Shown here: in pieces, positions 3,098-29,235 of the stretch
Numbering within the stretch: the first letter of the stretch is position 1
Layout of the letters: every line of letters begins with the position of its first letter
Assembly: GCF_054482525.1 (NCBI RefSeq)
Contig: NZ_CM137006.1
Strand: one strand, 5' to 3'
DNA: 64,000 nt
The notes under the pieces: generated by a model
Told to the model about the DNA's origin: nothing
The model's input: only the letters and a program-made list of their open reading frames with translations
The model's database searches: none
Position numbers and translations under genes: made by a program

Positions 3098-3148
3098 TGT
3101 AATTCTACCGTGTAAATGAACCCTGTAATTCTACCTTGTAAATACACC
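3098..3148. repeat. tandem direct repeat (2 x ~25 bp) in AT-rich intergenic region
   Basis: Read directly: tgtaattctaccgtgtaaatgaacc followed by ctgtaattctaccttgtaaatacacc; extra tagaagt copies nearby. Confidence 0.6.
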
Positions 3149-4182
3149 TTGTAACCAAGTCCTGTAGAAGTCTGTCTCATAGAAGTATCTGTGCAGTGAT
3201 ATTCTCTGTAGTAGTACTTGTAACTCTGTCCTTAACTCTCTCTTCAGTAATGTAGTCCCGCAACACCTGAATATAAATCTGTAATGTTCACACACTGACT
3301 GTAACGTGCTTTGTTAAGTAATGTCTGCTATTTTTTTCTGTTATTTTTCCTGTTGTTTTCTGTATTTTGTTGTATGGTGTAATAACTATTCTGAACCCGT
3401 CATCACCTTTATAGCTAAGAGTATGACTTCGCCAGTGTTGATACTGTGGATAACGGTGATTAAGGAATTACTGTTAATGATCTGTTCCTGCAGCTCACCT
3501 GATGAGTTTTGGTAGTAATACGTAAAAGAGTATGCCTCATGTCATTAAAAAGTCTTCCGGAGTGTTGTTTAACCCTGTACCTCTGTTACTCATGTAGTAC
3601 GTTGCGGAAAGCTACGTTAATTGTAATATCTGGTTATGGCGTTATGCCTTCAGTATTAAAAACATCTTTTACCGGAGAAACTGGGAAGTGGAAAGGCTTT
3701 CGGGATAACGTCAGGCCATTATGACGATATTACGTTAATCACAGTACAAGATAACGAGAGGGTAATGGAATTTTAAACCAGAGTAGTTCCACTGTTGTTC
3801 ACTGGAAAAAGTGATTTCCCACGCGCGTTATAAGCTTACTCCAGAGGAGATGGAAGCCTTCAACTCTGCGGTCGATCACCGGCTGGCAGAACTGACCATG
3901 AACAAACTTTACGATCGTGTTCCCGCTTCAGTCTGGAAATATGTTACCTGATAAATGTTTCTGATGAAGTACAGTCGTCACAATGACATCACTTCAGATA
4001 TTATCTGCGCTGTGATTGACTGTCACGTATGCCGTTCTCTGTATGGTTCTGATACCCGGGTGTGGTCCCACTTTCTCTGTGGCGCCCGGGGAGTTGTGAA
4101 CCTGCACGTCTTCGTGTGATAACGTTTTCTTCAAAAATTACGCCAGCGCTTCTTCCTGTGTTACAGAACACGAGGAAGAAAC

Positions 4183-4782
4183 ATGAAGACTTACAACACC
4201 AATCCCGGTTACGAAATGGATCCCCAGCTCCTGACACACTTTAACCAGCATCTGGATTCATTATTCGGGGTATATTCGAAACTGTTACCGTTCAGAATGG
4301 ATTTTGCTTACCGAAAAAACACCCTCAGCTACAGATGTGCCTGCAGGTACGCCATGTGCGCGGAGATACTGCGACTGATTAACGAAGTGGGAGAGAAACT
4401 GGTCGGGTATGCCTGGGTAATGGAATATACGGAACGTAAAGGGCTTCACATTCATTTTGTGGGCTATCTGAACGGTCAGAGCCACAGGAGTTCGTATCTG
4501 GTATCCAGATTGATGGGAGATATCTGGAGGCGGGTTACCGAGGGTGATGGTTACTACCACTGGTGCCGGTTTAATAAAAATTATCCGGTAAACATTAACC
4601 ACGTCATTCACTATTCAGATCACAAAGCGGTGAATGCCTTACGCTATGCCATCAGCTACCTGGCCAAACGAGAACAGAAAGAATGTGGCATCATCCTGAA
4701 ATGCAGCGGGCTTCCTGAAAAAAGTAATCGGGGTCGACCGCGACTGGGCAGCCCCCTGCCGGAGACTTATTCTCTGGTGTAA
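4183..4782 (+). CDS. inovirus Gp2-family protein (YagK/YfjJ-like, rolling-circle initiator homologue)
   Basis: 199-aa ORF; motifs LPFRMDFAYRKN, GLHIHFVGYL, ALRYAISYLAKRE shared with paralogues at 23552 and 28669. Confidence 0.65.
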   Translation: MKTYNTNPGYEMDPQLLTHFNQHLDSLFGVYSKLLPFRMDFAYRKNTLSYRCACRYAMCAEILRLINEVGEKLVGYAWVMEYTERKGLHIHFVGYLNGQSHRSSYLVSRLMGDIWRRVTEGDGYYHWCRFNKNYPVNINHVIHYSDHKAVNALRYAISYLAKREQKECGIILKCSGLPEKSNRGRPRLGSPLPETYSLV

Positions 4783-10858: not shown

Positions 10859-12121
10859 CTATTTTAATGGATTGTTAATCTTTGCATATTCAAACGGGCT
10901 GATACATTGTTCTCTGTTCGCACCCAGAAAATCTGCCCACCACTGTAGCATCAGTCGACGTTCTTCCAGATGTTCTGCTTTATGGATATATGCAGCACGT
11001 ACACCATTACGCTCCTGATGGCTCATCTGACGTTCCACAGCATCGCGGGACCACAAACCTGATTCAATCAATGCACTGCACGCCATCGCCCGGAATCCAT
11101 GACCACAGACTTCCTGGGTTGTGTCATATCCCATCACCCTCAGGGCTTTATTTACAGTATTTTCACTGATCGGTTTACGCGGGTCATGTGCTCCCGTAAA
11201 GATCAGACCATTTTCACCAGCCCATGTCTGTAGTTCTGTCAGTATGGCTACAGCCTGTTTGCTGAGTGGCACAAGATGTGGTGTTCGCATCTTGGAGCCC
11301 CGGTGTGAGTATTTTACGCCTGGCAGAGGTTCGCGTTCGGCTGGAATAGTCCACATGGCATTGTCAATATCAATTTCAGACCAGCGGGAATATCTGAGTT
11401 CACTGGAACGAATAAAAACCAGTAAATTCAGCATAACTGCCAGTCGGGTGACAGGCTGACCTTTATAACCGTCAATACGCGACAGAAGTTCAGGCAGGCG
11501 TGAAAGATCCAGAGCAGGGCGATGCTGGCGTTTTACCGTGGTCAATGCACCAGCCATATCCAGAGCCGGGTTATATCTGATGATGCCAGACTGTACGGCA
11601 TAACGCATTACAGCAGATATTCTTTGCTGCAGACGACTGGCGATTTCATAAATTTGTTTTGCTTCTGCAGCACGAACAGGGATAAGCAGGTCCGGGGTAT
11701 TGAGTGTTGTGATATCCCGGTTGCCGATAAAGGGGAAAACGTGTGTCTCGAGGCTTTTGATTACTTTATCGCTGTGTGATTGTGCCCATTGTTTATTACT
11801 GGCATGCCAGCGTCGTGCAATATGTTCAAAAGAGAGTTGTAAATCAGGGACTACTTTTTTAGCTCTTTTTTGTTCGCAAGGGTCAATCCCCTCTGAAATC
11901 AGTTTTCGGGCCTCATCCCGTTTTGTACGAGCTTCGGAGAGAGAAACTTCTGGATATACACCAAGTGCCAGAGTCTTCTCCTTACCCAGAATACGATAAC
12001 GGAGACGCCAGTAACGGGAACCATTAGGATGAACCAGCAGGAACATGCCAGCCCCGTCAGTGAGTTTATAAGCCTTGTCAGTGTGCTTTGCAGCCCGGAT
12101 TTTTGCGTCAGTCAGTGCCAT
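10859..12121 (-). CDS. int: P4-type tyrosine integrase
   Basis: 420-aa ORF; N-terminal MALTDAKIRAAK, C-terminal catalytic region HGFRAMACSAL...YIHKAEH; partial copies at 52262..52335 and 62508..62690. Confidence 0.9.
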   Translation of the reverse strand: MALTDAKIRAAKHTDKAYKLTDGAGMFLLVHPNGSRYWRLRYRILGKEKTLALGVYPEVSLSEARTKRDEARKLISEGIDPCEQKRAKKVVPDLQLSFEHIARRWHASNKQWAQSHSDKVIKSLETHVFPFIGNRDITTLNTPDLLIPVRAAEAKQIYEIASRLQQRISAVMRYAVQSGIIRYNPALDMAGALTTVKRQHRPALDLSRLPELLSRIDGYKGQPVTRLAVMLNLLVFIRSSELRYSRWSEIDIDNAMWTIPAEREPLPGVKYSHRGSKMRTPHLVPLSKQAVAILTELQTWAGENGLIFTGAHDPRKPISENTVNKALRVMGYDTTQEVCGHGFRAMACSALIESGLWSRDAVERQMSHQERNGVRAAYIHKAEHLEERRLMLQWWADFLGANREQCISPFEYAKINNPLK

Positions 12122-20047: not shown

Positions 20048-20995
20048 GTGTGGAGGGAAGAGATGACTGCACAACAGATTGATGCATTACGCGACATTGT
20101 TAATAAGGCCAGAGTTACCGCCATTTGTAAAAGTCCGGCCTGGAAATATACTCTGCGAATACTGAAGCGCAGCAGACTCGTGTACAGAGGAGAACGGTCA
20201 GAATCGTTTGATCCGGAGAAACATTTTAATCGTTATACGGTGCGTTATCTGTACCTGCTTAACATAATGGCACTTGAGCTAAAGTCAGATACACGGATTA
20301 AGGTTGAGGTAGGTCAATGGTATCGCATGACGGGTAAACGTTTATCACTTAATGTCCCGCCTTTTATGCTGATTCCGCGTAATATCCGGAGAAAAGTGGA
20401 TGGATTCAGACAATCAGAAGGCGAAGCAACAAAACAAACGGCTCAACCGTTCACGGGCAGTTTGTATGAGGTTTTGAGCAGGGATAACGATTCGGCTGAG
20501 CTGGACGCCTGGTTTGCTGAACCACCGCTGACACGACAGGAAGTGCGGGAGGGGAGGCGTGTCACAGATTTTAATCCATGGGCGCAGTCTTCGTTTATTT
20601 GCCGTTCAGCATCCCCGACGTTTGAACTTTTTTACCAGGAATATAAGCGACTGGGATTAAGTGTTTTTTTTGATCCGGAAAATAGAAAACCTTTTGAAAG
20701 TATAAAAAAACATTTCGGGGATAAACCACAGTTACTGGAGAGACTGGGGGATGTGTTGTTTTTCACGTCGCTTTATAACCAGGGATGTTTAGGGGAGTTT
20801 GTCAATGCGCTTGTGGAAAAGGAGGACATTTATCTGAAAGCGTCCCCCGGGGAAGAAAAGCTGAAAGCACACCAGAAAATGATTAACTACATTGAAGAGT
20901 TCTGCAACAAAATGACGGAAAAGTATCTGATATCCGCAGCCAGGAGACACTACCAAAAGAAGAAAATCGGCAGGAGCAGAAGTGGTGAAAGTTAA
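20048..20995 (+). CDS. hypothetical protein (315 aa)
   Basis: Intact ORF; 3' end overlaps the convergent gene 20992..21915 by 4 bp; no assignable domain. Confidence 0.45.
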   Translation: MWREEMTAQQIDALRDIVNKARVTAICKSPAWKYTLRILKRSRLVYRGERSESFDPEKHFNRYTVRYLYLLNIMALELKSDTRIKVEVGQWYRMTGKRLSLNVPPFMLIPRNIRRKVDGFRQSEGEATKQTAQPFTGSLYEVLSRDNDSAELDAWFAEPPLTRQEVREGRRVTDFNPWAQSSFICRSASPTFELFYQEYKRLGLSVFFDPENRKPFESIKKHFGDKPQLLERLGDVLFFTSLYNQGCLGEFVNALVEKEDIYLKASPGEEKLKAHQKMINYIEEFCNKMTEKYLISAARRHYQKKKIGRSRSGES

Positions 20996-21915: not shown

Positions 21916-22479
21916 TCACTTCAAGGCTTGATCACTCTGTGAGATGCTGAAGAACTATTCTCTAACTATTCACGATCTATTCTTGATCTATTCATAATAA
22001 ATTAAAACATGCTATCAACTACTGCTCATATCCTCCTTGGGTGTGTCGTTGTACTGTTCGACTGTTCTTGTGGTCAGATTAACAATCTGAAGAGTAAAAG
22101 CGACAGTAATCTGTCTGTTATAGTGGCGATAAAAACACTGAATGCGCATCCTGTATGTGAAATCCTGTCATGTGGAGCAGTAAGCAATGACAGGCATGCA
22201 TGTTATATGTGAAGGGGGCCGGGAGACGACATAATCAGTATGGCTGTCATTCTGGTTGTAAAACGCGATCACTTTCCGGGGGTAAAAGATGATATGGAAG
22301 CTGACAAACGGTTTGCTTCGGATTGTCTTTTCTGGGGCCTGAAATACGGGGACAGAAAAATAATTCCAGAGTAAATCTGCTCCGTTTTCAGAACAAAAAT
22401 CCCCATGCTGGCCGTGAAAAACTGAAACGAACATTCAGTCTGCATGAGTGTCTGAAGATGTTGAGAATGTCGGTATGAT

Positions 22480-22700
22480 ACTATATACACATGTTTTTAT
22501 TAAGTGTTATATACATATCTTTTTAAATAGATAATTCTACACATATTTTACTAAGTGTTTTTACTAAGCATTTCAGTAAGTGTTATACACGTATTTTCTA
22601 CTAAGTGTTTTACCAGACATACACATGTTTTCATAAACAATTCTACAAGTGTTTTCATTAAGTATTGTTATACACATTGCTTTGTCTGATACACATCCAG
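22480..22700. repeat. cluster of short imperfect direct repeats (taagtgtt core, >=5 copies; acacatgtttt x2) in AT-rich non-coding DNA
   Basis: Read directly from sequence; irregular spacing, no ORF. Confidence 0.6.
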
Positions 22701-23551
22701 TTTAGTAAACCTGTCAGTCCTGTTTTTACGTTAACTAAAATCAGCTTAATGCTACTACAAAACAATCTTTCCTGTTTAAGCAATCAATATGATATTCTAT
22801 TTTTCTGATGTTACATTTAACCTTTTATGAGTTTTCGTGTTTTTAGTCGTTAACCTGAGACAAGTGTTTTTATGTAAAACGCAAATCCGGCTGAGATAAC
22901 CTGGCGTGATTTACTGTGTGCTTACGATGATTTTGTTAAATGGTTTTATGGATGATTTTGTAGCGATAAGATTGATGAGATGATTAACTGGCCCTGGTGT
23001 TTTTTCTCAGTGCAAGGTGATTATCTTCATCATAAGGCTCTTTTCAGAAAAAGCGTGATGATTGGTTCTGGTGTTTTGATTCAGATGAGATTTACGTTAT
23101 CGATGGTTAATCGTTTTTATGGTGTGTTGAAAAGTAACGTTTTCAGGATAAGAAAATCGATTCTGATGTTGGTGGTTTTTGTTCTCGGGGCAGGGTTATC
23201 TGTAAACAGGTTTTAAACGCGCTATTCGGCTCTGTGATTGAGTTTTGTGGTTAAGCTGTAGGTTTTGGTATTGTTGTTGATTCACAGCAGCAGAAAGCGT
23301 TCTGATTGCGTTTTTGGTGTTTTGTTTGCACGTTCTGTTGATCCGTTTCCCTTCGGGCTTTGTAGTTTTTAAAAACCATTTATGCCGTTGTTGTGTGTTT
23401 TACCCTGCGTGTAGGTTTATCTTTTCTTCGTGGGGGATTCATTCTGTTTTAATCAGGAGCCATTGGCGTTGCTCAATGGCGGGATGCCGTAAAGTTTTAC
23501 CGCAGTGATTAATGATGTGAAGTCAATCCAAATCAACGGAGATCTCTCATC

Positions 23552-24283
23552 ATGAATCAACCAATACACAATGCTTACTGGTTATCCCGTTTTGACAGCC
23601 TTCTCGACAGTGCCCTAGTGCAGCACCGTGCCGTCTCGTTAATTCGGGTGGATTTACGTTTTCCTGAGTATATGCCTGCCACTATTATGGATACCGATTT
23701 AGATTCAGCAGTGATTTCTCGTTTTTTCGAATCCCTGAAAGCAAAAATTCAGGCTTACCAGCGGAAAAAACGACGTGCCAACAAGCGTGTGCGTGCAACC
23801 ACTCTGCGTTATTTCTGGTGTCGGGAGTTTGGCAAGGAAAAAGGCAGGAAACATTATCACGTGATATTACTGCTCAACAAAGATACCTGGTGCTCGCCAG
23901 GGGATTTCACCGTTCCTTCTTCGCTGGCGACGCTGATCAAGCTGGCATGGTGCAGTGCTCTGCATCTCGAGCCCTGGCAGGGTAATGGACTGGTTCATTT
24001 TTCCAGGCGGACGCCTTTCCGTAAACCGACATCATCTGATGCTCGCCCTTCTTCCGATGATACGCCTTTGTCGGGTGGATGTTCTGAAACCAGGAAGGCT
24101 TCAGACAAAAAGCCGGGTGAAGCCGCTGTTCTCTGGGTCAAGCGTGGTGATGTGGAAGCGATGCAGAAAGCCATGGAGAGAGCCTGTTATCTCGTGAAGT
24201 ATGAGACGAAGCAGCATGACGGTTCTGGGCAACGTAATTATGGTTGCAGTCGTGGGCCGGGGCGTCTACTGGATGGCAGGTGA
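23552..24283 (+). CDS. inovirus Gp2-family protein (YagK/YfjJ-like)
   Basis: 243 aa; RVDLRFPEY and HYHVILLLNKD motifs parallel the other Gp2-like paralogues. Confidence 0.6.
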   Translation: MNQPIHNAYWLSRFDSLLDSALVQHRAVSLIRVDLRFPEYMPATIMDTDLDSAVISRFFESLKAKIQAYQRKKRRANKRVRATTLRYFWCREFGKEKGRKHYHVILLLNKDTWCSPGDFTVPSSLATLIKLAWCSALHLEPWQGNGLVHFSRRTPFRKPTSSDARPSSDDTPLSGGCSETRKASDKKPGEAAVLWVKRGDVEAMQKAMERACYLVKYETKQHDGSGQRNYGCSRGPGRLLDGR

Positions 24284-27072: not shown

Positions 27073-28668
27073 AATAACCTTACACAGATAAAACAAAATC
27101 AACCAACCTTCATTCGGAGGTTGGTGATAAGGCGTTTTGCATATCCTGCACCTATGCAAATGTTCACCAATTATGGGGGGGGAATGAGAATTTCTCTGAA
27201 AAAACCGCTACGGTAGCAACAGTAGCAGCACATGCACCACATCTGTGATTTAATTTTGTTTTCATAATGACCTGCTGTCAGAGCTGGTTGAATACAGGAG
27301 TGTGCGCACTGGTGGAAGCATGGCTTTCGTTTTTTATTGATCGAAAGTGAATCGAAAGATTATTTTTAACATAGATTAAAGCTAATCATTAACCATATTG
27401 TGTGAGTTTTCATATATAACTTCGTTTGATTTTCGTCGTGATGAGTGTAGGTGTATATGATAATGTCGGTCTCTGCCTGAATAACGAATGGTTATCACTG
27501 TTACTGAAAAGAGATGCTGTTCAAGTTTGCATTTCAATAGGAGAGTGAAGAAAAATGATTTGATATTTTTTCTGTAAGATAATGGTTTGTCATGTTCGTA
27601 TTCAGAACGGATGATTTCTTATTTTTACTCATCAAACATGGATAATTTTAATTTAGGTTTATTACTATAATTAGTATCTACCCCTTTATTTATCATCCAT
27701 CTCTGCCCTTCATTTTCCCTCTCTGTCTTTACACATTCCATTACTCTTATTCTCATCCAGTTATATTCACTCCCTTCCTTGTCTAATCTTCATTGTCACC
27801 ATTATCATGGTATCCACCTTCTCCATTCCTCAATCATAACTACTGTAACTCATATGATACTCAGATAAGTTATTCTCTACTACGCTATTGCTGATATCCA
27901 TCTGTTCCTGTTTTCAGTAAAATAATAATTTATTTTAATTTTATCCATCATGAGCTGTATTTGCTTAACAATGATTGTTTATCTGATATGTTTTAACCAT
28001 TCTGGTAAATATCAATACTTCTGTCATCACTGATTAACTGAATGCTTACTCTTTAATAAGGTATCCATTATTCTGTAACGATTAGCCGAGCAGGGTAAAT
28101 AACAGAATTAATAGAGTGAATTTCTGATTGTGTTTGTTCGTTCCTGATTATCTTGTATTTTAAATAAAATGAAAATTATCCATCCATGGTATGTTTCATT
28201 CTGGTACCGTGTACCCGTTAACGTTCATATCTTGAACATGAGTTGTTTTTAACAGATAAAATGAGTGCGTGTAAGTTTATTGGGTTACAGGTATCGTGTT
28301 GGCCTTGTACACGGTTTTTTAGAACCATTGAGAGCAAGTTTGTAATTTATGATGGTGATTAGTCGTAATATGTTTCTTGAACTTCTGATCGTGGGTTTTT
28401 ATCGCATATTTTGCAGTATTTCGTGATGTTTATTGATTCTGTATTTTATTCACTCCTCGTTTATCTCATCTCTTTAGCTAATACCATCAGATAATCCATT
28501 TATTTCTGCACAACGCTACGTGTCGTTAATAACCGACGTATCCATTCTGTTACAGCATGCCTGATAAATACCGTCTGTAAGTTATTACCGTTTTAGATCT
28601 GATTATGAGCGAAAGCATTAATTCGTTTACAGCACTTAAAACGTCATTAACTTTCAGGAGTCATCAGC

Positions 28669-29235
28669 ATGCCTAAATCTTACACACCAAACTGGTTTTT
28701 TACCGCTTTACTTGACAATCACATCAATCAGTTGGTCGCACGCTATTCCCGTCTGCGGGCCTTACGCATGGATTTCTTCTACAGGAAAGATACGCCTGAT
28801 TTCTTACAACCTGATCATCGCTGGCTTGAATTGCAGTTGCGTATGCTGCTGGAGCAGGTGGAACAATTTGAAAATATCGTTGGTTTCTTCTGGGTGATTG
28901 AATGGACGGCTGATCATGGTTTTCATGCGCATGCGGTTTTCTGGCTCGATCGTCAGAGGGTTAAAAAAATATATCCCTTTGCGGAGCGGATTACGGAATG
29001 CTGGCAGTCTATTACGCATAACAGCGGTTCGGCACACCGCTGTACATATCAGCCGCATTATACATACAACATCAACATTCCTGTGCGCCACAACGATCCT
29101 GAAAGCATCGATAATATTCGCGGTGCCCTGCATTATCTGGCGAAAGAAGAGCAAAAAGACGGGCTGTGTGCCTACGGCTGCAGTGAAGTTCCTGAGCGTC
29201 CTGCTGCAGGGCGTCCTCGTAAGCCTCACTTCTGA
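28669..29235 (+). CDS. inovirus Gp2-family protein (YagK/YfjJ-like)
   Basis: 188 aa; LRMDFFYRKD, GFHAHAVFWL, ALHYLAKEEQ motifs. Confidence 0.65.
   Translation: MPKSYTPNWFFTALLDNHINQLVARYSRLRALRMDFFYRKDTPDFLQPDHRWLELQLRMLLEQVEQFENIVGFFWVIEWTADHGFHAHAVFWLDRQRVKKIYPFAERITECWQSITHNSGSAHRCTYQPHYTYNINIPVRHNDPESIDNIRGALHYLAKEEQKDGLCAYGCSEVPERPAAGRPRKPHF

What the first reader, a model, noticed from the sequence alone, without database searches (positions are those of the whole stretch)
22480..22700. Iteron-like array of short direct repeats in non-coding DNA upstream of a Gp2-family gene
Seen: at least five copies of a taagtgtt core and two of acacatgtttt within ~220 bp, ~850 bp upstream of the Gp2-like gene at 23552. 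Established: inovirus gpII-type proteins are rolling-circle initiators that act at origin sequences. Inference: the repeats could be a relic origin or binding array for the Gp2-like or AlpA proteins, or merely AT-rich low-complexity DNA.
Basis: partly seen in the sequence, partly recalled or inferred. Interest (0 to 1): 0.45.

Follow-up and report, generated by a model that had tools for sequence, protein, structure and literature searches.

The report
Repeat array upstream of island nickase gene
A real, conserved block of short 12-13-base direct repeats sits in the long non-coding stretch ahead of a rolling-circle-type (HUH) nickase gene carried by a common E. coli genomic island; it is most likely a docking array for that protein, but no binding or function has been shown.

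Summary
The repeats are real but slightly over-counted. There are 4 exact TAAGTGTT copies (not 5 or more), 3 degenerate copies and 2 ACACATGTTTT copies at 22485-22700. They alternate with ATACACRTRTTTT boxes at a spacing of about 12/24-25 bp, all on the + strand, in 26% G+C DNA.

The window is an E. coli CP4-like island. The array occurs, always unannotated, in 1859 of 5426 complete E. coli genomes, with 3-7 copies that differ by whole units. It always lies ahead of the 243-aa 'inovirus Gp2'/YagK-family gene.

That protein keeps an HUH motif and a Y-x-x-K tyrosine, and its model resembles parvovirus NS1, AAV Rep and RepB origin-binding nickase domains.

The array begins right after a short box (TGTYGGTAT..). 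This box, and a second one (TAATWYCAGAGT) about 100 nt upstream, are conserved ahead of Gp2 homologues across Enterobacterales. Several other lineages have grown unrelated tandem repeats at the same spot. A very different Gp2 paralogue in the window has its own 13-bp array.

Best reading, at about 0.4 confidence: these are paralogue-specific binding repeats (iterons) of a Rep-like origin or autoregulatory region. Rival readings are an operator for another regulator, or AT-rich DNA prone to replication slippage and bound by H-NS. Nothing is published on this array. Interest is moderate.

The parts
22485..22700 (+). The array. It has about 8 ATACACRTRTTTT-type boxes (22485, 22509, 22537, 22585, 22619, 22643, 22670, 22689) alternating with 7 ACTAAGYRTT-type boxes (22499, 22550, 22563, 22575, 22600, 22645, 22657). 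All are direct repeats on the + strand, with a base period of about 12 bp and a composite unit of about 24-25 bp.
   Evidence: Conserved with 3-7 TAAGYRTT copies and whole-unit indels in 10 E. coli variants. Present in 1859 of 5426 E. coli genomes.
22699..22740 (+). Right edge of the array. It holds an inverted copy of the repeat core (CAGTTTAGTAAA, the reverse complement of TTTACTAAACTG), followed by TTTTTACGTTAACTAAAATCAG. This segment is invariant or nearly so across E. coli variants.
   Evidence: inverted repeats I17, I24, I25; invariant columns.
22468..22480 (+). Box 2, TGTCGGTATGATA (consensus TGTYGGTATRRTA). Its left boundary is sharp. The array starts 16 nt after the box begins.
   Evidence: It is the only match in the window. 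It is conserved ahead of Gp2 homologues in E. coli, Providencia, Proteus, Limnobaculum, Budvicia, Rosenbergiella, Serratia and viral-collection contigs. Tandem repeats start 11-16 nt after the box begins in E. coli, L024, L036 and L022.
22361..22372 (+). Box 1, TAATTCCAGAGT (consensus TAATWYCAGAGT), 107 nt upstream of box 2. It marks the left end of the sequence block shared by E. coli variants.
   Evidence: It is the only exact match in the window. It is found 83-128 nt before box 2 in most lineages. Homology among E. coli variants starts at about 22330.
22701..23551 (+). Non-coding spacer (leader) rich in G+T, between the array and the gene. It carries GTGTTTT / CTGGTGTTTTG motifs on the + strand at 22837, 22864, 22997, 23071, 23317 and 23395.
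   Evidence: GC skew is up to +0.43 and AT skew down to -0.52. GTGTTTT occurs 6 times against 0.59 expected from dinucleotide shuffles. Nine of the 20 window matches lie in 22555-23401, all on the + strand. The sites at 23071 and 23317 are conserved among variants. In some islands 23090-23376 is replaced by 1.15 kb carrying a minus-strand gene.
23494..23551 (+). Conserved element next to the gene (TTTTACCGCAGTGATTAATGATGTGAA ... ACGGAG), likely the gene's own promoter, operator and ribosome-binding region.
   Evidence: 100% conserved among E. coli variants at 23510-23569. Alignable with the equivalent stretch in Hafnia, Siccibacter, Providencia, Proteus and Rosenbergiella homologues.
23552..24283 (+). 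243-aa 'inovirus Gp2' / YagK-YfjJ family protein, a predicted HUH (Rep-like) nickase and the proposed partner of the array.

Best explanation
The array is a cis-acting protein-docking site. It is a set of same-strand 12-13-bp binding repeats (iterons in the broad sense) for the HUH Rep-like protein encoded about 0.85 kb downstream.

Together with the two conserved boxes at its left (box 1 at 22361, box 2 at 22468), it forms the control or origin region of the Gp2/YagK module of this CP4-like genomic island.

Proposed mechanism:
- Several Gp2 monomers bind the repeats side by side through the origin-binding face of the HUH domain. RepB does this on its 11-bp direct repeats, AAV Rep and parvovirus NS1 on tandem tetranucleotides, and geminivirus Rep on its iterons.
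- This positions the nickase at a nearby conserved site. Box 2 or box 1 is the candidate.
- Binding may also auto-regulate transcription of the module.
- After Int/AlpA-driven excision this would allow rolling-circle replication, or production of single-stranded DNA, from the circular island.

What is shown:
- the repeats, their conservation and their unit-wise copy-number variation;
- the linkage to the gene;
- the HUH fold and catalytic residues;
- the conserved boxes;
- the recurrence of lineage- or paralogue-specific arrays at the same position.

What is inferred: that Gp2 is the binder, that nicking occurs, and that replication or transfer follows.
For: 1. **Real, ordered array.** All copies are on one strand, with a period of about 12/24-25 bp, and enrichment exceeds local-composition shuffles.

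2. **Conservation.** It is kept in 1859 of 5426 E. coli genomes at 75-100% identity and is never annotated. Copy number varies from 3 to 7 by whole units, while the cores TAAG, ATACAC and the right edge stay invariant.

3. **Constant partner.**
   - The synteny array - spacer - Gp2 gene holds in all 10 E. coli loci inspected, whatever lies to the left: a + or - strand hypothetical gene, IS66 or ISEcp1.
   - The block of homology starts at about 22330, just left of box 1, and runs through the gene.

4. **Gp2 is a credible origin-binding nickase.**
   - Pfam YagK_YfjJ_C plus REP_ORF2-G2P.
   - Weak PHROG matches to replication initiators.
   - A Microviridae VP4-like match, E = 3e-4.
   - Conserved HxH and Y-L-x-K.

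5. **Conserved site plus variable repeats.**
   - Boxes 1 and 2 are conserved across genera whose Gp2 proteins are only 41-50% identical.
   - They are also present where no AlpA gene lies within 5 kb (L041, L044, L045, L047).
   - Unrelated tandem repeats have arisen immediately after box 2 in Limnobaculum (36 bp x 4.4), Budvicia and Proteus myxofaciens (23 bp x 2.3).

6. **Paralogue specificity.**
   - The 199-aa Gp2-type paralogue at 4183 aligns with the 243-aa one only at the HUH motif.
   - It has its own 13-bp-period array (TGTAAnTCTACCn) about 1.05 kb upstream. That array is found in 747 genomes with 6, 9 or 11 units.
   - The two AlpA proteins in the window are 69% identical, with near-identical helix regions. 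The arrays therefore track the divergent Gp2 class rather than AlpA.
Against: - There are no binding, nicking or replication data of any kind.
- No conserved hairpin or nick-type motif was found. The hairpin that puts box 1 in a loop exists only in two E. coli variants. The array has no excess single-strand structure: z = 0.04 as DNA and 0.25 as RNA.
- The array lies 0.85-1.07 kb from the gene and can be separated from it by a 1.15-kb replacement carrying an opposite-strand gene.
- Arrays are not universal. Most distant Gp2 homologues show none above background. The Hafnia/Siccibacter group lacks even boxes 1 and 2. Two of the four paralogues in the window have no array.
- The L022 and L024 repeats are 98-100% identical copies. 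They are recent duplications and could reflect a slippage hot spot rather than selection.
- Within E. coli the array is no better conserved than its flanks.
- Gp2 homologues are rare on plasmids (64 of 72,556) and nearly absent from phages. No autonomous replicon using this family is known.
- Up to 8 copies of the module coexist in one chromosome, which argues against constitutive origin activity.
Confidence: 0.4

Rival explanations
1. The array is an operator for a different island regulator: an AlpA/Xis/Vis-type winged-helix protein, the WYL-HTH protein, or an unknown factor. The regulator would polymerise along tandem 12-13-bp sites and switch transcription of the Gp2-AlpA module and/or the divergent GTPase-antirestriction-RadC operon. 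No nicking or replication would be involved.
For: - AlpA-family genes (excisionase and transcriptional-regulator PHROGs; a weak TIGR01764 match) accompany Gp2 in most loci.
- By established knowledge (not tested here), excisionase, Cox and Xis-type proteins bind head-to-tail direct repeats at about 10-13 bp spacing.
- In E. coli (some variants) and in Providencia the repeats lie between divergent gene sets. In Providencia and Proteus a period-12 array (ACGTAGTRTTTT x 3-4) abuts the start of the divergently transcribed 312-aa gene.
- Box 2 contains a -10-like TATGAT/TATAGT with G at -14.
Against: - The two AlpA copies in the window are 69% identical, with near-identical DNA-reading regions, yet the two arrays share no motif.
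- Boxes 1 and 2 occur in loci with no AlpA within 5 kb.
- No TAAGTGTT cluster lies near the integrase gene or the island ends, as a recombination directionality factor would need.
- In several E. coli variants the left neighbour is co-directional or is an IS, so there is no divergent promoter to control.
- There is no conserved -35. The most conserved part of box 2 (TGTYGG) lies outside the -10-like hexamer.
- The P. aeruginosa AlpA antiterminator is a different, larger protein.
Confidence: 0.2
2. The array has no sequence-specific partner. It is AT-rich DNA prone to replication slippage, expanding and contracting by chance, and at most it serves as an H-NS-bound silencing patch typical of horizontally acquired DNA.
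For: - G+C is 26% with frequent T-tracts.
- Copy number changes by unit indels.
- The repeats at the same spot in L022 and L024 are 98-100% identical recent duplications.
- The array is no better conserved than the flanking leader.
- The leader tolerates a 1.15-kb replacement.
- Many distant homologues lack arrays.
Against: - Motif cores and the right half of the array are invariant across variants that are 75-90% identical overall.
- Strict single-strand orientation, and two alternating box types, are kept in all variants.
- Independent arrays recur at the same position relative to box 2 in several genera.
- A second, unrelated 13-bp array sits ahead of another Gp2 paralogue.
- The 12-13-bp period is out of phase with the helix, so this is not classical phased-A-tract bent DNA (inference).
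Confidence: 0.25
3. The repeats act after transcription. They would be part of a long 5' leader, a small RNA, or a short hydrophobic peptide gene that starts at box 2.
For: - Read in one frame, box 2 gives V-G-(I/L/M)-(V/I/F)-(L/I)-(Y/F), with apparently synonymous changes (GTC/GTT, GGT/GGA/GGG).
- Budvicia has a clean 19-22-aa ORF, MIRRFIFRLLIVGLFIIYT, followed by a GC hairpin plus a T run.
- The G+U-rich, C-poor leader would be a poor Rho substrate (inference).
Against: - There is no conserved start codon or ORF length. E. coli variants give 7-25-aa unrelated tails, and Providencia has no start codon at all.
- Conservation stops abruptly at the left edge of box 2.
- Predicted RNA structure is at chance level, z = 0.25.
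- Rfam gives no match at gathering threshold and only chance-level hits at a permissive threshold.
- The gene has its own conserved proximal element.
Confidence: 0.08
4. The array is a classical theta-type plasmid origin, with iterons plus DnaA boxes plus an AT-rich unwinding element.
For: - TTATACACA at 22667-22675 equals the oriC R2 DnaA box (from memory). Several 8/9 matches lie in the same orientation.
- The surroundings are AT-rich.
Against: - The perfect box is specific to this variant. Others read CTATACACA or CTGTACACA.
- The repeats are 12-13 bp, not 17-22 bp at 22-bp spacing.
- No RepA, pi or TrfA-type initiator is encoded nearby.
- The second array has no DnaA-like box.
- Gp2 genes are rare on plasmids.
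Confidence: 0.04

Closest known systems
Double-strand origin of pMV158-family rolling-circle plasmids (RepB, with a nick locus plus a 'bind' locus of 11-bp direct repeats)
   Same: - An HUH initiator gene sits next to a set of short same-strand tandem direct repeats.
- A conserved site is paired with variable repeats.
   Different: - This array has a 12-13 bp period, about 15 boxes of two alternating types spread over 215 bp, and lies 0.85 kb from the gene.
- No inverted-repeat hairpin carrying a nick site was found.
- The element is chromosomal and integrated, not a plasmid.
- Nothing has been shown experimentally.
Parvovirus NS1 / AAV Rep origin recognition (tandem ACCA or GCTC tetranucleotide repeats)
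   Same: - Those proteins bind reiterated short motifs as oligomers.
- GTGTTTT/TGGTG motifs continue through the spacer.
   Different: - The repeat unit and length differ, and there are no terminal hairpins.
- Sequence identity is only 9-15%.
- Any resemblance between TGGT motifs and NS1 sites is from memory and was not tested.
Geminivirus / CRESS-DNA virus Rep iterons
   Same: - Lineage-specific iterons lie beside an invariant site, in the promoter region of the rep gene.
- They serve both origin recognition and autorepression. The pattern of conserved boxes plus variable arrays seen here matches this logic.
   Different: - No nonanucleotide in a stem-loop was found.
- The repeats here are longer and more numerous.
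- The gene appears to have a separate proximal control element.
Binding arrays of recombination directionality factors and Cox/Xis/Vis proteins in P2/P4-type elements
   Same: - They are head-to-tail direct repeats at roughly one site per 10-13 bp in AT-rich DNA.
- They belong to P4-like (CP4) elements that encode an AlpA/Vis homologue.
   Different: - The array is not next to an attachment site or to the integrase gene.
- Array sequence does not track AlpA similarity.

Membership tests
Rolling-circle double-strand origin served by an HUH Rep | A cognate HUH initiator with catalytic HUH and Tyr motifs is encoded adjacent. | tested here: met
   [not shown]
Rolling-circle double-strand origin served by an HUH Rep | Reiterated initiator-binding repeats lie near the nick site. 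| tested here: inconclusive
   A direct-repeat array is present, conserved and paralogue-specific. Binding by Gp2 was not tested.
Rolling-circle double-strand origin served by an HUH Rep | A conserved nick sequence is present, usually in a hairpin loop or in an AT-rich site dependent on supercoiling. | tested here: inconclusive
   Two conserved boxes exist. There is no conserved hairpin and no demonstrated cleavage. A resemblance of the minus strand to CTTGATA/phiX-type sites is from memory only.
Rolling-circle double-strand origin served by an HUH Rep | Supports autonomous replication and produces single-stranded DNA intermediates. | not testable with these tools
   Gp2 genes are rare on plasmids (64 of 72,556, all but a few of them large replicons). 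Only 2 phage-collection hits were found, one of them an unverified low-coverage contig.
Theta-type iteron origin (RepA, pi or TrfA class) | Iterons of 17-22 bp at about 22-bp spacing, with a winged-helix Rep encoded nearby. | tested here: not met
   The period is 12-13/24-25 bp. The neighbouring genes are an HUH protein, DUF3987/YfjI and AlpA, with no RepA-type initiator.
Theta-type iteron origin (RepA, pi or TrfA class) | Conserved DnaA boxes and an AT-rich unwinding element. | tested here: inconclusive
   There is one perfect TTATACACA in this variant only, and 8/9 matches elsewhere. The AT-rich criterion is met.
Excisionase / recombination directionality factor binding array | Tandem direct repeats adjacent to the attachment-site core or the integrase promoter. 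| tested here: not met
   The array is about 10 kb from the integrase gene (10859-12121), and no TAAGTGTT cluster lies there or elsewhere in the window.
Excisionase / recombination directionality factor binding array | Repeat sequence co-varies with the element's excisionase. | tested here: not met
   The AlpA copies are 69% identical, but the two arrays in the window are unrelated.
Plasmid partition centromere (parC, parS or tubC arrays) | A linked ParA, ParM or TubZ motor gene and a centromere-binding adaptor gene. | tested here: not met
   No such gene is annotated in the 41 kb around the array. The neighbouring GTPase is of the MMR_HSR1/dynamin-like type.
Known RNA families (Rfam) | A covariance-model match at gathering score. 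| tested here: not met
   There were no matches in the whole window, and only chance-level hits at E <= 5.

The most novel reading that the evidence does not exclude
The YagK/YfjJ ('inovirus Gp2') proteins of CP4-like islands are active rolling-circle nickases, and boxes 1 and 2 plus the paralogue-specific 12-13-bp arrays are their origins. Under this reading, the 'cryptic P4-like prophage' islands, whose repeat array is found in about a third of complete E. coli genomes and which have relatives across Enterobacterales (Gp2-like/AlpA islands are also reported in Pseudomonas), are replicative or single-strand-transferring elements. Their origin specificity would be set by array type, much as incompatibility groups are set in plasmids.
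Probability: 0.25. Interest if true: 0.7.

Novelty: new variant of a known kind. Interest (0 to 1): 0.45.

Why it matters
CP4-like islands carry virulence, defence and resistance cargo. In this window they carry sul2, strAB, tetA and floR. They are among the commonest mobile DNA in E. coli, yet the role of their near-universal Gp2/YagK gene is unknown. Papers that mention it only list it as a 'core' gene.

A defined cis element gives that protein a testable substrate. The element comprises two boxes conserved across genera and a paralogue-specific repeat array. If it proves to be an origin, it would explain how excised islands are maintained or handed to helpers. It would also give a sequence marker for classifying island lineages.

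If it is only a regulatory or silencing patch, it is an ordinary feature of acquired DNA.

Tried and rejected
- **tRNA and Rfam scans.** Nothing was found.
- **Single-strand DNA and RNA folding of the array.** No excess structure.
- **Box 1 in a hairpin loop.** Seen only in the window and L010 variants and not conserved, so dropped as evidence for a nick site.
- **Sigma-70 promoter scan.** Fewer hits than in shuffles and no convincing + strand promoter at the array.
- **Box 2 as a simple -10 element.** Weakened, because the invariant part is TGTYGG and several lineages lose the key -10 positions.
- **Homology between the E. coli motif and the Providencia period-12 motif** (TTTTACnnAGTGTTT). 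A local alignment scored within the shuffle range (28 against a maximum of 33), and the Providencia array lies on the other side of box 1. It is treated as unproven.
- **P. aeruginosa AlpA antitermination model.** That is a different, larger protein with a GGGACG site, so it does not apply.
- **Plasmid replicon idea.** Gp2 genes are rare on plasmids and mostly on large ones.
- **Phage origin.** Only an unverified 4.4-kb low-coverage contig and one Microviridae VP4-like hit were found.
- **Small-ORF reading of box 2 and the array.** No conserved start codon or length.
- **DnaA-box reading.** Specific to this variant.
- **Generalisation that every Gp2 homologue has an upstream array.** False: most distant loci show none above background.
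- **Literature.** Three searches and five papers gave no functional data on this region.

Full report
**Where the window comes from.** The region matches many E. coli chromosomes at 100% identity.
- In strain W2-5 the surrounding 41 kb is annotated as a CP4-like ('cryptic P4-like') island.
- On the minus strand it carries a toxin-antitoxin pair, radC, an antirestriction gene, DUF932 and a GTPase block.
- On the plus strand it carries an 'inovirus Gp2 family' gene, YfjI (DUF3987), two YagK/YfjJ-domain genes, an AlpA-type HTH gene and then a resistance region.
- The finding lies in a 1.75-kb unannotated gap. The gap runs from a minus-strand hypothetical gene (annotated end equivalent to window 21801) to the Gp2-family gene at 23552-24283.

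**The observation.** The repeats are real but slightly over-counted.
- TAAGTGTT is present exactly four times in the interval (22501, 22552, 22577, 22602). The fifth exact copy in the window is at 20658.
- Three degenerate copies follow: TAAGCATT at 22565, CAAGTGTT at 22646 and TAAGTATT at 22659.
- ACACATGTTTT occurs twice.
- These boxes alternate with a second box, ATACACRTRTTTT. It has six clear copies and two partial ones. ATACACRT has 5 of its 7 window matches here, all on the + strand.
- Tandem Repeats Finder gives periods of 12-13 and 25. Autocorrelation peaks at lags 24, 12, 25, 37 and 48.
- G+C falls to 26%.
- Ten near-copies of TAAGTGTTTTT lie in the 1.2 kb before the gene. Locally composition-preserving shuffles gave at most 7.
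- Neither the DNA nor the RNA strand folds better than shuffles: z = 0.04 and 0.25.
- Rfam and tRNA scans are empty.

**Conservation within E. coli.**
- A 321-bp query over the array finds 1859 of 5426 complete genomes, at up to six places per genome and 75-100% identity. It is always unannotated.
- In ten loci fetched from across that range, the order array - spacer - Gp2 gene is constant while the left neighbour changes. It may be a hypothetical gene on either strand, IS66 or ISEcp1.
- The YAAGYRTT count ranges from 3 to 7. Differences are insertions or deletions of whole repeat units. The cores and the right edge (ACACATCCAGTTTAGTAAA, an inverted copy of the repeat core) are invariant.
- The block of homology among variants begins at about 22330 and runs through the gene. 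Everything further left is unalignable.
- Within that block the array is not better conserved than its flanks. In some islands 23090-23376 is replaced by 1.15 kb carrying an opposite-strand gene.

**The neighbouring protein.**
- The 243-aa product matches Pfam YagK_YfjJ_C (E = 7e-37) and REP_ORF2-G2P.
- It weakly matches phage replication-initiator PHROGs and a Microviridae VP4-like ORF.
- In an alignment spanning 21-85% identity, H101, H103, Y213, L214 and K216 are invariant or nearly so. These form an HUH motif plus a Y-x-x-K tyrosine motif.
- Homologues are rare on plasmids (64 of 72,556) and almost absent from phage records.
- The papers found only list the gene as a core component of islands.

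**Relatives outside E. coli.** Thirty-eight loci came from one-genome-per-species contigs and nine from viral contigs. They show recurring neighbourhoods:
- DUF932 - GTPase - a roughly 310-aa gene on one strand, and Gp2 - AlpA (- a second YagK) on the other;
- AlpA then Gp2;
- YfjI then Gp2.

Two short boxes are conserved ahead of the gene in most lineages.
- They are TAATWYCAGAGT (window 22361) and, 83-128 nt downstream, TGTYGGTATRRTA (window 22468).
- The lineages include E. coli, Providencia, Proteus, Limnobaculum, Budvicia, Rosenbergiella and Serratia. Loci with no AlpA within 5 kb also have them.
- Each box occurs once in the window.
- Box 2 has a sharp left boundary. Its most conserved part (TGTYGG) lies outside its -10-like hexamer.
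- The E. coli array begins 16 nt after box 2 starts.

Unrelated tandem repeats begin at the same place in other lineages:
- Limnobaculum, 36 bp x 4.4;
- Budvicia diplopodorum;
- Proteus myxofaciens, 23 bp x 2.3;
- Budvicia aquatica, slightly further on.

Several observations limit this pattern.
- Providencia and Proteus also have a period-12 array (ACGTAGTRTTTT). It lies on the other side of box 1, next to the divergent gene. Its likeness to the E. coli motif is not statistically secure.
- Many distant homologues have no array above background.
- The Hafnia group lacks the boxes altogether. It shares only a roughly 65-bp element next to the gene, which E. coli also has at 23494-23551.

- The other three Gp2-like genes in the window (4183, 28669, 30665) do not share the motif or the boxes.
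- The 199-aa paralogue at 4183 aligns with the 243-aa protein only at the HUH motif.
- It has its own strictly 13-bp-period array (TGTAAnTCTACCn / TGTAAATGAACCC, 3098-3170) about 1.05 kb upstream.
- That array is conserved in 747 genomes and present as roughly 6, 9 or 11 units.
- The AlpA proteins of the two islands are 69% identical and nearly identical in their helix regions.
- Array sequence therefore follows the divergent Gp2 class, not AlpA.

**Interpretation.** The pattern has five elements:
- an HUH Rep-like gene;
- conserved short boxes;
- lineage- or paralogue-specific same-strand repeats beside them;
- unit-wise copy-number change;
- an AT-rich setting.

This is the logic of Rep origins, which pair a conserved nick region with variable iterons, often overlapping rep autoregulation. 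I therefore rank 'Gp2-binding repeats of an origin or autoregulatory region' first, at about 0.4.

It is not a member of the classical iteron-plasmid class, because both the period and the initiator type are wrong. Membership of the rolling-circle origin class is unproven, since no nick site, hairpin or replicon was found.

The rivals are:
- an operator for another regulator (0.2);
- a non-specific, slippage-prone, H-NS-type AT-rich patch (0.25);
- a leader RNA or small-peptide reading (0.08);
- a theta-type origin using DnaA (0.04).

Resemblances of the minus strand to CTTGATA/phiX174-type nick sites, and of TTATACACA to the oriC R2 box, come from memory. They are leads only.

**Verdict.** This is a real and widely conserved cis element of unknown function, not previously described in the literature available here. 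It is moderately interesting. It would matter chiefly if the YagK/Gp2 proteins prove to be active nickases acting at this site.

Noticed in passing
window 3098-3170 (array); 4183-4782 (gene): A second, unrelated direct-repeat array with a strict 13-bp period (TGTAAnTCTACCn / TGTAAATGAACCC, about 6 units) lies about 1.05 kb upstream of a 199-aa Gp2-type paralogue. It is conserved in 747 E. coli genomes, with 9 and 11 units in two other strains plus a CTCTAC microsatellite expansion in one.
   Followed up: partly
window 22361-22372 and 22468-22480; also L016, L020-L027, L032-L036, L038, L041, L044, L045, L047, L052-L054: Two short boxes (TAATWYCAGAGT and TGTYGGTATRRTA), 83-128 nt apart, are conserved upstream of Gp2-family genes across several genera of Enterobacterales. 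Tandem duplications recur immediately after the second box in independent lineages.
   Followed up: partly
window 22701-23551: The spacer between the array and the gene is strongly G+T-rich on the + strand. It carries GTGTTTT / CTGGTGTTTTG six times against 0.59 expected, and two of the sites are conserved among E. coli variants. GATGATT is also enriched (4 against 0.13 expected).
   Followed up: partly
window 23494-23551: A conserved element next to the gene (TTTTACC..TAATGATGTGAA..ACGGAG) is alignable with the stretch just before the start codon in Hafnia, Siccibacter, Providencia, Proteus and Rosenbergiella homologues. It is probably the gene's own promoter or operator.
   Followed up: partly
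window 21952-21993: Four copies of (A/T)CTATTC lie at an 11-bp period (TRF consensus unit GAACTATTCTC, 3.8 copies). They sit just upstream of the minus-strand hypothetical gene that ends the left-hand operon. This could be a separate operator-like array.
   Followed up: no
window 27073-28668: Another long (1.6 kb) non-coding stretch precedes the 188-aa YagK/YfjJ paralogue at 28669. It has a C+T-rich tract at about 27680-27840 and a box 1-like AATTAATAGAGTGAAT near 28108, but no tandem array.
   Followed up: partly
window 22667-22675: TTATACACA is identical to the oriC R2 DnaA box (from memory), and several 8/9 matches lie in the same orientation within the array. The perfect match is specific to this variant.
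   Followed up: partly
L033 about 3614-3673 (coordinates read from the sequence); L036 about 4569-4637: In Budvicia a 19-22-aa hydrophobic ORF (MIRRFIFRLLIVGLFIIYT) spans box 2, and a GC-rich hairpin plus a T run lies further downstream. The ORF looks like a type I toxin but is not conserved in other lineages.
   Followed up: partly
L021, L026, L027, L032, L034, L035, L038 at about 4568-4625: Providencia and Proteus islands carry a period-12 array (ACGTAGTRTTTT x 3-4) abutting the start codon of a divergent gene of about 310 aa with unknown function. It lies upstream of box 1.
   Followed up: partly
window 23552-24283, residues about 153-189: E. coli 243-aa Gp2 proteins carry an insertion of about 45 aa with low predicted confidence (rich in S, P, D and K). 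The roughly 190-aa homologues of other genera lack it.
   Followed up: no
L009 3808-4001: In E. coli strain D2 an ISEcp1-blaCTX-M-24 unit is inserted within box 2, truncating the left part of the control region.
   Followed up: no
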